64,000 nt of DNA from Gammaproteobacteria bacterium (GTDB lineage: Bacteria; Pseudomonadota; Gammaproteobacteria; JAJFKG01). The stretch spans positions 651,362 to 715,361 of the forward strand of contig OZ220716.1 in the NCBI GenBank assembly GCA_965116795.1, in the 5' to 3' direction. A program made the position numbers and the translations under genes. Numbering within the stretch: position 1 is the first letter of the stretch; every line of letters begins with the position of its first letter. The notes under the pieces are model-generated. The model worked only from the letters and a program-made list of their open reading frames with translations. It was not told where the DNA came from and ran no database searches. This document shows positions 29,415-32,400 of this stretch, one piece after another.

Positions 29415-32400
29415 ATGAGTCGCAAAAATAGCAAGCAATTAAATAAAGAGTTAAAGTTTCAGACAAAAAAACAGCGATTACATGGTGGCAGAAACCAATT
29501 TGGTCCTGCGAAAAAACGTGACATACAACGTATGGAGCAGCAACAATTTTTCAGCTCAACGCCTTGGAAACATACTCCACCTGCTGGAGTGACTTTGTTG
29601 TTATTGTCGATGATGGTGGGTTCAGCTGCAATCCAGGCAGGCCGAGAAATGTCAGAACGAGGGAATAGCAATTTATCATCTAGAGAACGTCGCCCTCGTC
29701 AGTTTGACTCAATGATAAGTCCTTCACCGAGCCCCTCATTGAGCCCATCGCCGAGCCCGAACTCACGAGAGTTGACATCTGAAGAACAAATCGTATTACA
29801 AAGTGTTAACGATTGTTTGGACGCTGAGCCGAGTCAAGCCAATTATACCTCTGTTGTGTGTGATGATGCAGCTGAAAAGTGTATTGAATATATGACAGAT
29901 GCTGATTCTGCGGGTGAGCTCGGTGATGTAGGTTCTACTAGTATAACTTCTACAGACATAGGTAAACTTTGTGATAGGTTTGTAGATGGCTATAATGGTA
30001 ATTCGGGTTTAACGAGTCAGAGTTTAAGTTTATCACCAAGCCCGAGTGTGAGTCCGAGTCCGTCGCTGGTTCCAAGTTTGAGTCCGTCGCTGGTTCCAAG
30101 TTCGAGTCCGTCGCCGGTTCCAAGTTCGAGTCCGTCACCGGCTCCAAGTTCGAGTCCGTCACCGGTTCCAAGTTCGAGCCCATCGCCGGCTCCGAGTTCG
30201 AGCCCATCGCCGATTCCAAGTTCGAGTCCGTCACCGGCTCCAAGTTCGAGTCCGTCACCGAGCCCCTCATTGAGCCCATCGCCGATTCCAAGTTCGAGCC
30301 CGTCACCGATTCCGAGTTCGAGCCCATCGCCGAGTGTGAGTCCATCGCCGGTTCCAAATCCGAGTCCGTCGCCGGTTCCAAGTTCGAGTCCGTCACCGAT
30401 TCCAAGTTCGAGCCCATCGCCGATTCCAAGTTCGAGTCCGTCGCCGGCTCCAAGTTCGAGTCCGTCGCCGAGTTCAAGTCCGAGCCCGTCACCGGCTCCG
30501 AGTTCGAGCCCGTCACCGATTCCGAGTTCGAGCCCATCGCCGAGTGTGAGTCCATCGCCGGTTCCAAGTTCGAGTCCGTCACCGGTTCCAAGTTCGAGTC
30601 CGTCGCCGGTTCCAAGTTCGAGTCCGTCGCCGGTACCAAGTTCGAGTCCGTCGCCGGTTCCGAGTATGAGTCCGTCGCCGGTTCCAAGTATGAGTCCGTC
30701 GCCGAGCCCAAGCCCAACTCCGTTATTGCCATGTATAGAAACAGGAAAAGAGCTATCTGATCAGATGATGAGACTGACTATTGCTAGGGATCAGAAGGTT
30801 TCCGTGAACAAAGTTTGCGTCAATGGAGAAAATGGTCCAATTACCGATGAGCAATTGGAGAAGTTCTTAACAACTTCCGAAAGACCTCAATTAGGTACAT
30901 TGCTACGGTCTAACGGTGTGACTATGGTTGGTACAGTAAATGGTCAAATAGTATATCAACCAGGTACACCCTATTTAGCAGGTAATTTTATTACAAGAGA
31001 ATCGATTGGTGACAAATCCTTAGATGCAAGTGGATTGCTTTCCGTAGGTGCAGAATGGGTACGGGGGAGAACTCAACCAATAGAGGGTAGTGATTTTAGT
31101 AATGCTACCTTTTTAGGAGGGACGTTACCTGGCGGCCATAGGTGTAATTTTAGTAATACTTACTCTAATCTTGGCCAACGAGGAGTATCTTTACGGTGGA
31201 CGAAGAGCAACGTAGAAAATGCTTACCTGCGTTATACATCAACGCGTAATCATGATGCTATTTTTACAGGTTCTCATGGAGATAACTTTAGTGTTGAAGC
31301 CAAATCTAAACAACCGATTCATTTTAACTTCGATCTTTTTGAAGGTGCAGATCTAAATGTAACGGCTACGGTATCTAAATCTAGTCCATCTGATTCAACT
31401 GACACAACGTTTTCGTTTATGGGATCACAAGTTAGGGATCTGACAACGAATGCAATGAAAGTTGTTAATGGTACGGTAGGGGTTATTAAAGGACAGGTTG
31501 GTGACTACGCAAGCATTACTGCTGCTGATCCAAAGATACAGCACATTAAAGTCATTGGTGATAATGATGGTACTGCTTGTTTAGACCGGGACCTTATTGA
31601 GAATGGTGGCTGCCCTGTTCCGCCAACGCCAAGTCCATCACCAAGCCCAAGTTCAAGTCCGTCGCCGGTTCCAAGTTCAAGTCCGTCGCCGGTTCCAAGT
31701 TCGAGCCCGTCACCGGTTCCAAGTTCAAGCCCGTCGCCGGTACCAAGTTCGAGTCCGTCGCCGGTTCCAAGTTCGAGCCCGTCACCGGTTCCAAGTTCGA
31801 GTCCGTCACCGAGCCCAAGTTCGAGTCCATCGCCGAGTTCGAGTTCATCGCCGGTTCCAAGTCCGAGCCCGTCGCCGAGCCCGAGTTCGAGTCCATCGCC
31901 GAGTTCGAGTTCATCGCCGGTTCCAAGTCCGAGCCCGTCGCCGAGCGTAAGTGAGTCACCAAGTCTGAGTCCATCACCGAGCCCGAGTGTATGGCAAACA
32001 GCTAAGCCAACGTTGCCAGAACAGATTGAACGAGGGATTAAACAGCATGAAGTGGTATTTGGAATATCAGTTGCTGCTACTGTAGCAGTAGGATTGTTTG
32101 GTATTCACAGATACAGCACAAGTACAGCAAGAAGGATTGCAGATCTGATGAACTATTTAAATGAGATCGACAAAATAAAGCCTTTCCTTGGAGATGACTT
32201 TGAACAGCAAGAGTGTGTAAAAAATCTGGCTTCACAGTTGCGTACTGCACGGTTTAGTGAGCTAACAAAGAATTTTAATAGTTTGACTAATGGATTAGAA
32301 AGTACCATAGGTAGGGTTAACGGAGATCAGGCTAACAATTTCAAAGATCAAGTTCAGCCTCTTCTGACAGCTATCCAAAGTGCACATAACGAAGATGCTC

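What the first reader, a model, noticed from the sequence alone, without database searches (positions are those of the whole stretch)
30010..31990. Near-identical 24-bp in-frame tandem repeats, a VNTR-type contingency region
Adjacent 24-bp units differ by 0-3 bases. The unit length is a multiple of three, so replication slippage or recombination would change linker length without breaking the frame and might tune surface reach or antigenicity. The repeats are far more GC-rich than the rest of the window. They are also a likely point of assembly collapse.
Basis: seen in the sequence. Interest (0 to 1): 0.6.

Follow-up and report, generated by a model that had tools for sequence, protein, structure and literature searches.

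The report
Serine-proline stalk repeats in membrane protein
The 24-base repeats are real and encode two long serine-proline spacers that hold a beta-helix domain away from the membrane in an uncharacterised protein of a Legionella-like bacterium; this is a familiar kind of repeat, and whether its length varies between strains is still unproven.

Summary
Two separate in-frame 24-bp arrays (30033-30722, about 28 units; 31626-31988, about 13 units) and a mini-array (29718-29765) lie in one 1143-aa gene (29415-32846, + strand). They are split by 0.9 kb of unique sequence. Units are degenerate: about 85% pairwise identity, adjacent units differ by 1-10 nt, and none are identical.

The repeats encode (SPSPxPSS)n. 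The protein has a basic N-tail, TM1, SP array 1, a domain modelled as a beta-solenoid, SP array 2, TM2 and a C-terminal tail. It has no Pfam, NCBIfam or PDB sequence match.

The host is an uncultured Legionellales-like gammaproteobacterium. A paralog in the same genome carries three solenoid modules separated by the same kind of array and is mosaic with the target. Distant homologs keep an 82-158-aa proline-rich linker before the membrane anchor, built from different units. A secreted, barrel-like partner gene sits upstream in every locus of the distant relatives, but not at the paralog's locus.

Best reading: extended Ser/Pro stalks that evolve by unequal recombination. This is size variation, not an on/off contingency switch. 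Copy-number differences occur in relatives, but at least one is probably an assembly artefact. Array 2 is identical in a second assembly. The GC excess is mostly amino-acid composition.

The parts
29415..32846 (+). Whole gene: 1143-aa orphan membrane protein that contains all the repeats. A Shine-Dalgarno-like AAGGGTG lies 6 nt upstream of the ATG.
   Evidence: ORF list and translation. Upstream sequence. No Pfam, NCBIfam or PDB sequence match.
29415..29582 (+). Basic N-terminal tail (56 aa, net charge about +11), predicted cytoplasmic.
   Evidence: Charge count. Equally long basic tails are present in P0001, P0002 and P0003.
29583..29642 (+). Hydrophobic segment TM1 (aa 57-76). It ends in AIQA|G, so it could be a signal anchor or a cleaved signal.
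   Evidence: Kyte-Doolittle scan.
29718..29765 (+). Mini SP array ([16 protein letters not shown]). It shares a 31-bp exact match with array 1 (29724 against 30255).
29766..30029 (+). Small acidic domain with four Cys (aa 118-205). It has no detectable relation to the solenoid module.
30033..30722 (+). SP array 1: 230 aa, 48% Ser and 37% Pro. About 28 units, mostly 24 bp (SPSPxPSS, x = V/I/A/S), with 18- and 30-bp variants. It contains a 67-bp exact duplicate at a 210-bp offset.
30723..31625 (+). Unique central domain (aa 437-737): short helical head plus a right-handed beta-solenoid, with conserved Cys at both ends. It is mosaic: the N-terminal two thirds are 91-100% identical in nt to paralog module D2, and the last third is 93-97% identical to module D3.
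31626..31988 (+). SP array 2: 121 aa, 54% Ser and 36% Pro. About 13 units of 24 bp plus a 66-bp higher-order repeat (63-bp exact duplicate). It is identical in the independent contig L001.
32049..32108 (+). Hydrophobic segment TM2 (aa 879-898), followed by basic residues.
32109..32843 (+). C-terminal 245-aa domain with no family match. It ends in an acidic stretch followed by hydrophobic residues ([12 protein letters not shown]).
27775..29316 (+). Upstream partner gene: 513-aa protein with a signal peptide and a conserved core of about 300 aa that looks like a beta-barrel. No terminator-like site lies between it and the repeat gene. Homologs sit immediately upstream of the family members in the related genomes.
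   Evidence: No Pfam or PDB match.
29950..30732 (-). Spurious antisense ORF produced by the repeat. The consensus unit is open in all six frames. The same applies to 31594-31977 (-) and 31597-31950 (+, other frame).

Best explanation
The 24-bp repeats are the coding sequence of two Ser/Pro-rich low-complexity spacers, (SPSPxPSS)n, of 230 and 121 residues. The spacers bracket a beta-solenoid ectodomain in a membrane protein with two hydrophobic anchors. The protein belongs to an uncultured Legionellales-like bacterium.

Shown:
- the arrays are in frame;
- their composition is 36-37% Pro and 48-54% Ser;
- they sit between the hydrophobic anchors and the solenoid domain;
- every detectable relative has a proline-rich linker of 82-158 residues at the same place, directly before the second anchor, but built from a different repeat unit;
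- a paralog in the same genome carries three solenoid modules separated by the same kind of array, and target and paralog are recombinant mosaics of each other.

Inferred:
[quoted passage not shown] They would then act as stalks or tethers that set how far the solenoid domain stands from the membrane, up to about 40 nm for array 2 at 0.31 nm per residue.
- The positive-inside rule and the conserved cysteines place the loop outside the cytoplasm, most likely in the cell envelope. It may work with the secreted, barrel-like partner encoded just upstream.
- At the DNA level the arrays evolve by slipped-strand mispairing and unequal recombination between units and higher-order blocks. This changes stalk length in frame and provides homology for shuffling whole modules between paralogs.

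This is size and module variation of a minisatellite type, not an on/off contingency switch.
For: - Repeat structure and frame.
- Composition.
- Topology: N-tail net charge about +11, two hydrophobic segments, basic residues after TM2.
- Invariant Cys at both ends of the domain across six copies.
- Only three relatives among 1.84 billion representatives, all with the same layout.
- Membrane-proximal linkers of 82-158 aa with 31-49% Pro in seven family members, built from different units of 8, 16 and 18 aa.
- Paralog on the same 2,447,832-bp contig. Its arrays use the same 24-bp consensus.
- Mosaic identity profile of 91-100% to module D2, then 93-97% to module D3.
- Long exact internal duplicates of 67, 63 and 47 bp.
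- Whole-unit indels between 99.9-100% identical contigs of relatives.
- Conserved partner gene.
- Published precedent from the literature: the proline-rich region of TonB forms a PPII rod long enough to span the periplasm (Kohler et al. 2010, cited in PMC5413942).
Against: - No experimental or population data exist for this gene. The single second copy of array 2 is identical, and the paralog's three arrays have the same copy numbers in two assemblies.
- Units are only about 85% alike, with mostly synonymous differences and no array-specific homogenisation. Current slippage rates may therefore be low.
- The copy-number differences in relatives come from contigs that may derive from the same samples. 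One of the three is out of frame and looks like a misassembly.
- Both stalks end in membrane anchors, so the simple 'reach' picture is limited by the shorter stalk.
- Localisation is predicted only. An inner-membrane anchor does not explain how the domain could be surface-exposed.
- The extended conformation is inferred from composition, not modelled.
Confidence: 0.65

Rival explanations
1. Translocated effector. The protein is a Dot/Icm (type IVB) substrate that inserts into a host membrane. The Ser/Pro arrays then act as mucin-like, possibly O-glycosylated, luminal stalks that mimic a eukaryotic type I surface glycoprotein.
For: The host bacterium is Legionellales-like. From established knowledge, that order is host-associated and rich in orphan and eukaryote-like effectors. 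The protein is an orphan located next to an IS66 transposase. The C-terminus, [13 protein letters not shown], is acidic and then hydrophobic, resembling the E-block type of Dot/Icm signal (read from the sequence; the resemblance is from memory). The layout of signal or anchor, Cys domain, S/P stalk, domain, stalk, TM and tail looks eukaryotic.
Against: A Sec-type secreted, barrel-like partner gene is conserved immediately upstream in four loci of relatives. That fits a bacterial envelope system better. Distant homologs carry large polytopic C-terminal membrane domains. The C-terminal tails are not conserved within the family. No Dot/Icm gene lies in the window. GC content and codon usage of the non-repeat parts match the genome, so a recent eukaryotic origin is unlikely. 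No effector predictor or translocation assay was available.
Confidence: 0.15
2. Hypermutable contingency or antigenic-variation locus. Frequent slippage changes array length within populations and is selected for immune or predator evasion or for tuning adhesion, as with Lcl in L. pneumophila.
For: Exact internal repeats of 47-67 bp are adequate slippage substrates. Relatives show whole-unit indels between near-identical contigs. Paralogs are mosaic. In L. pneumophila, repeat number of the Lcl adhesin varies between strains and correlates with adhesion and biofilm formation (PMC6460258). Seven of 26 intragenic repeats there are polymorphic (PMC2639597).
Against: In-frame units cannot give phase variation. 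Units are degenerate (85% identity) with mainly synonymous drift. Copy numbers are identical in the only second assembly for four arrays. One difference in the relatives is out of frame and likely an artefact. Only about a quarter of intragenic repeats were polymorphic in the one Legionella survey.
Confidence: 0.15
3. Passive low-complexity filler or assembly artefact. The arrays have no length-dependent role, and their present length partly reflects collapsed or expanded assembly.
For: Tandem repeats are a known source of assembly error (PMC6868369). Arrays in relatives differ between assemblies of apparently the same population, once out of frame. Array 1 has no independent confirmation.
Against: Array 2 is reproduced exactly in an independent contig. 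The ORF stays intact over 1143 codons. A proline-rich linker of similar length (82-158 aa) is kept at the same position in all family members even though the sequence is replaced. That argues for selection on having a long linker there.
Confidence: 0.05

Closest known systems
Intragenic minisatellites (VNTRs) of Legionella pneumophila, notably the collagen-like adhesin Lcl (lpg2644)
   Same: In-frame tandem repeats inside a gene of a Legionellales bacterium that encode an extended, non-globular spacer next to a functional domain. In Lcl, copy number differs between strains and changes adhesion and biofilm formation (PMC6460258, PMC2639597).
   Different: Lcl repeats are GXY collagen triplets that form a triple helix in a secreted peripheral protein. 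Here the unit is SPSPxPSS, there are two arrays, the protein has two membrane anchors and a beta-solenoid, and no strain polymorphism has been shown. There is no sequence relationship.
TonB proline-rich spacer
   Same: An inner-membrane-anchored protein with a proline-rich region in a polyproline-II-like extended form, long enough to cross the periplasm and reach an outer-membrane barrel partner (Kohler 2010, cited in PMC5413942).
   Different: The TonB spacer is about 70 residues of (EP)n(KP)n, is charged, and is not a DNA-level tandem array of 24-bp units. TonB has one anchor and a small C-terminal domain that binds TonB boxes, and it works with ExbBD. No homology was found, and the partner here is not a TonB-dependent transporter (no Pfam match).
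Serine-rich repeat proteins (SRRPs) of Gram-positive bacteria and S/T-rich stalked fungal adhesins (Candida Awp/Als type)
   Different: SRRPs use SAS[A/E/V]SAST-type repeats, the accessory Sec system, heavy O-glycosylation and LPXTG anchoring. None of these was found or is applicable in this Gram-negative lineage. The anchors here are hydrophobic helices.
Pro/Thr/Ser linkers of modular glycoside hydrolases (PT boxes) and staphylococcal SD-repeat adhesins
   Same: Low-complexity, proline- or serine-rich interdomain spacers encoded by degenerate in-frame repeats. SD-repeat copy number varies between strains (PMC3324548).
   Different: These occur in other protein families with other anchoring, and most such linkers are shorter. 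There is no homology.
Classical contingency loci (simple sequence repeats of 1-7 nt in Haemophilus and Neisseria)
   Same: Repeat-mediated hypermutation by slipped-strand mispairing.
   Different: Those loci shift the reading frame or the promoter spacing to switch genes on and off. A 24-bp in-frame unit cannot do that.

Membership tests
Coding minisatellite / VNTR | Head-to-tail repeats of a 10-100-bp unit | tested here: met
   TRF finds a 24-bp period with 27.8 and 12.9 copies, scores 751 and 321.
Coding minisatellite / VNTR | Unit length a multiple of three and array inside an intact ORF | tested here: met
   All units are 18, 24, 30 or 36 bp. The ORF is 1143 codons and open.
Coding minisatellite / VNTR | Copy number differs between strains | tested here: inconclusive
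   Array 2 is identical in the one other assembly, and array 1 has no comparator. Homologous linkers in relatives differ by 2 and 3 whole units between near-identical contigs. A third difference is out of frame and probably an artefact.
Contingency (phase-variation) locus | Repeat-number change switches expression on or off through a frame shift or promoter spacing | tested here: not met
   The arrays are internal to the ORF, and every unit variant is a multiple of 3 bp. A gain or loss of units keeps the frame.
Contingency (phase-variation) locus | Perfect or near-perfect short units giving a high slippage rate | tested here: not met
   The unit is 24 bp, mean pairwise identity is 85%, and no adjacent units are identical.
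Proline-rich extended (PPII) spacer | High proline content without a hydrophobic core | tested here: met
   The arrays are 36-37% Pro and 48-54% Ser, with 13% or less other residues.
Proline-rich extended (PPII) spacer | Extended conformation demonstrated | not testable with these tools
   This needs CD, SAXS or EPR on purified protein.
Proline-rich extended (PPII) spacer | Linker position conserved while the sequence is free to change | tested here: met
   Seven family members have an 82-158-aa linker with 31-49% Pro directly before the second anchor, built from 8-, 16- or 18-aa units of different sequence.
Pentapeptide-repeat / right-handed beta-solenoid fold (central domain) | Beta-solenoid three-dimensional fold | tested here: met
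Pentapeptide-repeat / right-handed beta-solenoid fold (central domain) | Sequence match to the Pfam pentapeptide families | tested here: not met
   No Pfam hit even at E up to 10. The domain shares the fold but is not a family member.
Two-partner secretion / autotransporter | Omp85-type TpsB partner or a C-terminal translocator barrel | tested here: not met
   The partner has no POTRA, ShlB or Omp85 match, only OMP_b-brl at E = 2.6. The target ends in a soluble domain after a TM helix.
Dot/Icm effector | Dot/Icm-dependent translocation or a recognised C-terminal signal | not testable with these tools
   There is only a by-eye resemblance of the C-terminus to E-block signals. No predictor or assay was available.
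Lcl collagen-like adhesin | GXY collagen triplet repeats | tested here: not met
   The unit is SPSPxPSS, with no Gly periodicity.

The most novel reading that the evidence does not exclude
The repeats are the visible part of an undescribed two-gene envelope cassette confined to a deep-branching Legionellales-like clade. One gene encodes a secreted protein with a beta-barrel-like core. The other, immediately downstream, encodes a membrane-anchored protein that carries one to three beta-solenoid modules on proline-rich stalks about as long as the periplasm is wide.

The cassette is multiplied: at least four partner paralogs and at least two stalk paralogs occur in one genome, and a relative has a tandem pair. 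The stalk arrays serve as recombination substrates that shuffle solenoid modules between paralogs. On this reading the cassette is a variable, trans-envelope or surface-display family, analogous in logic to TonB with its transporters or to stalked adhesins, but unrelated in sequence.
Probability: 0.25. Interest if true: 0.6.

Novelty: new member of a known kind. Interest (0 to 1): 0.35.

Why it matters
In-frame Ser/Pro minisatellites that encode stalks are a well-known device, so the repeat itself is ordinary. The value lies in three side results.

- The arrays flag a lineage-restricted orphan family: only three relatives among 1.84 billion representative proteins. It has a conserved partner gene and clear module shuffling. 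That makes it a candidate envelope or host-interaction system in a poorly known, probably host-associated Legionellales-like clade.
- The arrays would be practical typing markers if they prove to be polymorphic.
- The relatives give a concrete example of how such arrays corrupt MAG gene calls, with an ORF split by an out-of-frame collapse.

Tried and rejected
- Exact look-up of the protein with either start codon: not on record.
- Word-indexed homolog search with a repeat-free construct and with the domain alignment: no hits. It missed even proteins known to be in the collection, so that tool appears blind to this family. I do not count those nulls as evidence of absence.
- tblastn-type scans for the central domain in GTDB species genomes, JGI metagenomes and viral contigs: nothing.
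- Exact degenerate repeat-unit DNA pattern in JGI metagenomes: nothing.
- Rfam on the whole window: nothing.
- Single-sequence AF2 of the central domain: unusable, pLDDT 36.
- Foldseek against PDB: no significant match, although the weak matches were all solenoids. The afdb50 library was unavailable.
- The small Cys domain as a truncated solenoid module: rejected, hhalign probability 0.1%.
- The partner as an inverse-autotransporter or Omp85 barrel: a by-eye resemblance only, with no Pfam, NCBIfam or PDB profile support. A weak EirA hit (E 0.004, below the cut-off) on one relative's partner was not reproduced on the window protein.
- Foreign or eukaryotic origin of the arrays inferred from GC: rejected, because composition plus founder codons explain it and the non-repeat parts match the genome.
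- Antisense and alternative-frame ORFs over the arrays: rejected as artefacts, because the unit is open in all six frames.
- A comparator for array 1: none found. The Logan contig L082 stops at about 29471 and L001 starts at about 31300.
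Full report
**1. Observation**

Tandem Repeats Finder reports a 24-bp period at 30051-30704 (27.8 copies, 82% matches, score 751). It reports the same period at 31647-31943 (12.9 copies, 78% matches, score 321), where a 66-bp higher-order period is also seen (3.7 copies, 88%). The reporting threshold is 50, so the repeats are real and not chance.

Codon-level parsing gives:
- array 1 at 30033-30722;
- array 2 at 31626-31988;
- a mini-array at 29718-29765, outside the given coordinates.

About 900 bp of unique coding sequence lies between the two large arrays.

'Near-identical' is too strong. Adjacent canonical units differ by 1-10 nt and never by zero. Fifteen of the 22 canonical units in array 1 are distinct. 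Mean pairwise unit identity is 85% within arrays and 84% between them. Two thirds of the codon differences are synonymous. Units of 18, 30 and 36 bp are interspersed.

There are also recent-looking higher-order duplications: exact repeats of 67 bp at a 210-bp offset, 63 bp at a 66-bp offset and 47 bp at 72- and 96-bp offsets. A 31-bp exact match links the mini-array to array 1.

The GC excess is real, at 62% in the arrays against 41% in the background. The same peptide written with the genome's own codon usage would already be 56% GC. The remainder comes from CCG and TCG codons inherited from the founder unit. The non-repeat parts of the gene are 40.6% GC. Nothing points to a foreign origin.

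**2. What the repeats sit in**

All three arrays are in frame in one + strand ORF. A Shine-Dalgarno-like AAGGGTG lies 6 nt before the ATG at 29415, and the stop is at 32846, giving 1143 aa. The consensus unit has no stop codon in any of the six frames. This explains the antisense and alternative-frame ORFs that the ORF finder lists over the arrays; they are artefacts.

The unit encodes SPSPxPSS, with x = V, I, A or S. The arrays are 36-37% Pro and 48-54% Ser.

The protein layout, is:
- a 56-aa basic tail, net charge about +11;
- a hydrophobic segment, aa 57-76;
- the mini-array;
- an acidic domain with four Cys;
- array 1, 230 aa;
- a unique domain of about 300 aa;
- array 2, 121 aa;
- a second hydrophobic segment, aa 879-898, followed by basic residues;
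- a 245-aa C-terminal domain.

The positive-inside rule puts both termini in the cytoplasm and the 800-aa loop outside it. That placement is inference.

No Pfam, NCBIfam or PDB sequence match exists for any part of the protein.

**3. Organism and context**

The window is ordinary chromosome. It carries GlyS, ArgS, HslU, FtsYEX, UbiB, MlaE, ThyA and similar genes.

GlyS is 62% identical to a 'Gammaproteobacteria' MAG (JAJNDI01) and 43-50% identical to Coxiellaceae and Legionella. The host is therefore an uncultured, deep-branching Legionellales-like bacterium.

The gene lies in a small accessory patch. In order, the patch holds an IS66 transposase, a DUF4143 ATPase, a 513-aa orphan, the repeat gene and an HTH gene.

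**4. Relatives**

An exhaustive HMMER search of 1.84 billion representatives with the central domain found only three proteins.

- **P0001** (1692 aa, 61% identity) lies on a 2,447,832-bp contig. The window's own 513-aa protein lies on a contig of the same length, so P0001 is a paralog in the same genome. It has the same N-tail and anchor, then three copies of the central domain separated by SP arrays of 51, 151 and about 158 aa, then an anchor and an unrelated tail. Its main array uses the same 24-bp consensus with GCT (Ala) at the variable codon. Another of its arrays has a 48-bp unit.
- **P0002 and P0003** (28-29% identity), together with a further member found next to P0002 (1135 aa, L087), come from the nearest relatives of the host. 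All have a basic tail, an anchor, one central domain, a proline-rich linker and then membrane segments.

Across seven members, the linker directly before the second anchor is 82-158 aa and 31-49% Pro. It is built from different units of 8, 16 or 18 aa with different sequences. The position and approximate length of the linker are conserved, but its sequence is not. That is the signature of a spacer.

**5. The displayed domain**

Foldseek found nothing significant, but its weak matches were the same classes. The domain has no Pfam pentapeptide match, so it shares the fold without being a family member. Cysteines at both ends of the domain are invariant in all six copies. That fits an extracytoplasmic location.

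**6. Recombination**

A codon-aware alignment of the target domain with the paralog's three modules shows a mosaic. Alignment columns 81-190 are 91-100% identical at the nucleotide level to module D2 and about 50-70% identical to D3. Columns 241-310 are 93-97% identical to D3 and about 60% identical to D2. The tails of D1 and D2 are 98-99% identical to each other.

Modules are therefore exchanged by gene conversion or unequal crossing-over within and between the paralogs. The SP arrays that flank every module are the obvious homology tracts for such exchange, although that last step is inference.

**7. Is it a VNTR?**

For the target itself, the only second copy available is ENA metagenome contig L001 (ERZ26167977, about 2x coverage). 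It covers array 2 and is identical apart from one homopolymer indel elsewhere in the gene. The paralog's three arrays have the same copy numbers in the genome and in that metagenome, with one amino-acid difference. Array 1 has no comparator.

In the distant homologs, alleles from NCBI MAGs and from JGI sample 3300042904 compare as follows:
- one pair differs by exactly two 48-bp units, with one substitution elsewhere in the protein;
- another pair differs by exactly three 54-bp units, with no substitutions;
- the flanks of these pairs are 99.9-100% identical;
- a third array in the same pair of contigs differs by 92 nt. This is out of frame and splits the ORF in the MAG. It looks like an assembly error.

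The relatives therefore show that these linkers are unstable either in vivo or in assembly, and I cannot separate the two. For scale, only 7 of 26 intragenic repeats were polymorphic between strains in L. pneumophila (PMC2639597).

**8. Partner gene**

The 513-aa ORF upstream (27775-29316) has a signal peptide and a conserved core of about 300 aa with a strand-like, aromatic-rich pattern. It also has a variable C-terminal domain that contains Cys. No terminator-like site separates it from the repeat gene.

Homologs (34-43% identity, E about 1e-74 to 1e-80) lie 60-70 nt upstream of the family member in each of the distant-relative loci examined, L084/L087 and L085/L086. A second tandem pair is present in L087. 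No partner lies upstream of the paralog P0004 in L083.

At least three further partner paralogs are on the same 2.45-Mb genome. One of them is followed by a different, short gene. The partner matches nothing in Pfam, NCBIfam or PDB. Calling it an outer-membrane barrel is inference from the sequence pattern.

**9. Mechanism**

- **Best-supported reading (confidence 0.65).** The arrays encode extended Ser/Pro stalks that tether a beta-solenoid ectodomain to membrane anchors. They evolve by slippage and unequal recombination, which changes length in frame and helps module shuffling. At 0.31 nm per residue the membrane-proximal linkers could reach 25-49 nm. That is the order of the periplasmic width, as shown for the much shorter TonB spacer (Kohler 2010, cited in PMC5413942). 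An envelope-spanning role together with the partner is therefore plausible but unproven.
- **Translocated effector with mucin-like stalks (0.15).** This fits the orphan status, the host lineage and an acidic-then-hydrophobic C-terminus. It fits poorly with the conserved secreted partner and with the polytopic tails of the homologs.
- **True hypermutable antigenic-variation locus (0.15).**
- **Filler or assembly artefact (0.05).**

A strict contingency (phase-variation) locus is excluded, because unit changes keep the frame.

**10. Comparison and novelty**

The repeats are a new member of a known kind: coding minisatellites that make low-complexity stalks. The functional analogues, none related in sequence, are:
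- Lcl of L. pneumophila (PMC6460258);
- the TonB spacer;
- Gram-positive serine-rich repeat proteins and SD-repeat adhesins (PMC3324548);
- fungal stalked adhesins;
- PT linkers of glycoside hydrolases.

What is not described, as far as these libraries show, is the protein family itself and its conserved partner.

**Verdict**

It is overstated in calling the units near-identical and the region a contingency locus. Interest is modest at 0.35. The most novel reading not excluded is a new multi-copy envelope cassette with stalk-mediated module shuffling, at about 0.25 probability.

Noticed in passing
window 27775-29316 (+): A 513-aa orphan with a signal peptide and a conserved barrel-like core sits immediately upstream of the repeat gene. 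Homologs occupy the same position next to the family members in the related MAGs, and at least three more paralogs are in the same genome. It has no Pfam, NCBIfam or PDB match.
   Followed up: partly
L083 10001-15079 (ENA ERZ26167977 ctg7660); P0001 and P0004: A 1692-aa paralog in the same genome has three beta-solenoid modules separated by SP arrays. The target's central domain is a recombinant mosaic of paralog modules D2 and D3, up to 100% identical in nt over about 300 nt.
   Followed up: yes
L084 about 15560-15600 against L087 about 15470-15570: The proline-rich array of a second family member differs by 92 nt (out of frame) between an NCBI MAG and a JGI contig that are otherwise 100% identical. 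This splits a 1135-aa ORF into 522- and 546-aa calls in the MAG, probably through repeat collapse in assembly.
   Followed up: partly
window 23438-24973 (+) and 25836-26882 (+): An IS66-family transposase and a DUF4143/AAA_14 ATPase whose AAA_14 match covers only the last 60 of 129 profile positions lie just upstream of the partner and repeat genes. This suggests the pair sits in an accessory, mobile-element-associated patch between housekeeping genes.
   Followed up: no
window 32913-32941: A 29-bp near-perfect palindrome (GCAGTTATCCGGAATTTCCGGATAACTGC; two 13-bp arms around a 3-bp centre) lies about 70 nt after the stop codon. It has no T-run, so it could be a protein-binding site or a non-canonical terminator.
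   Followed up: no
window 21101-22522 (+): A 473-aa ORF next to the OPT transporter has no Pfam or NCBIfam match. It is another orphan near the accessory patch.
   Followed up: no
window 29950-30732 (-), 31594-31977 (-), 31597-31950 (+): ORFs of 117-260 aa are called over the arrays in other frames. The consensus 24-bp unit is open in all six frames, so gene callers may annotate spurious overlapping genes here.
   Followed up: yes
L001 about 180-190 against window about 31478-31486: The independent ENA contig has GGG where the window has GGGG, which breaks the gene into three called fragments. This is probably a low-coverage homopolymer error rather than a pseudogene.
   Followed up: partly
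tool behaviour (against 36, 40): The word-indexed homolog search returned nothing for this family, although P0001-P0006 are in its collection. The exhaustive HMMER search found them. Nulls from the indexed search should not be read as absence.
   Followed up: partly
L088 2576-3169: One partner paralog (P0009) is followed by a 197-aa acidic protein with one hydrophobic segment instead of a stalk protein. The pairing is therefore not universal.
   Followed up: no
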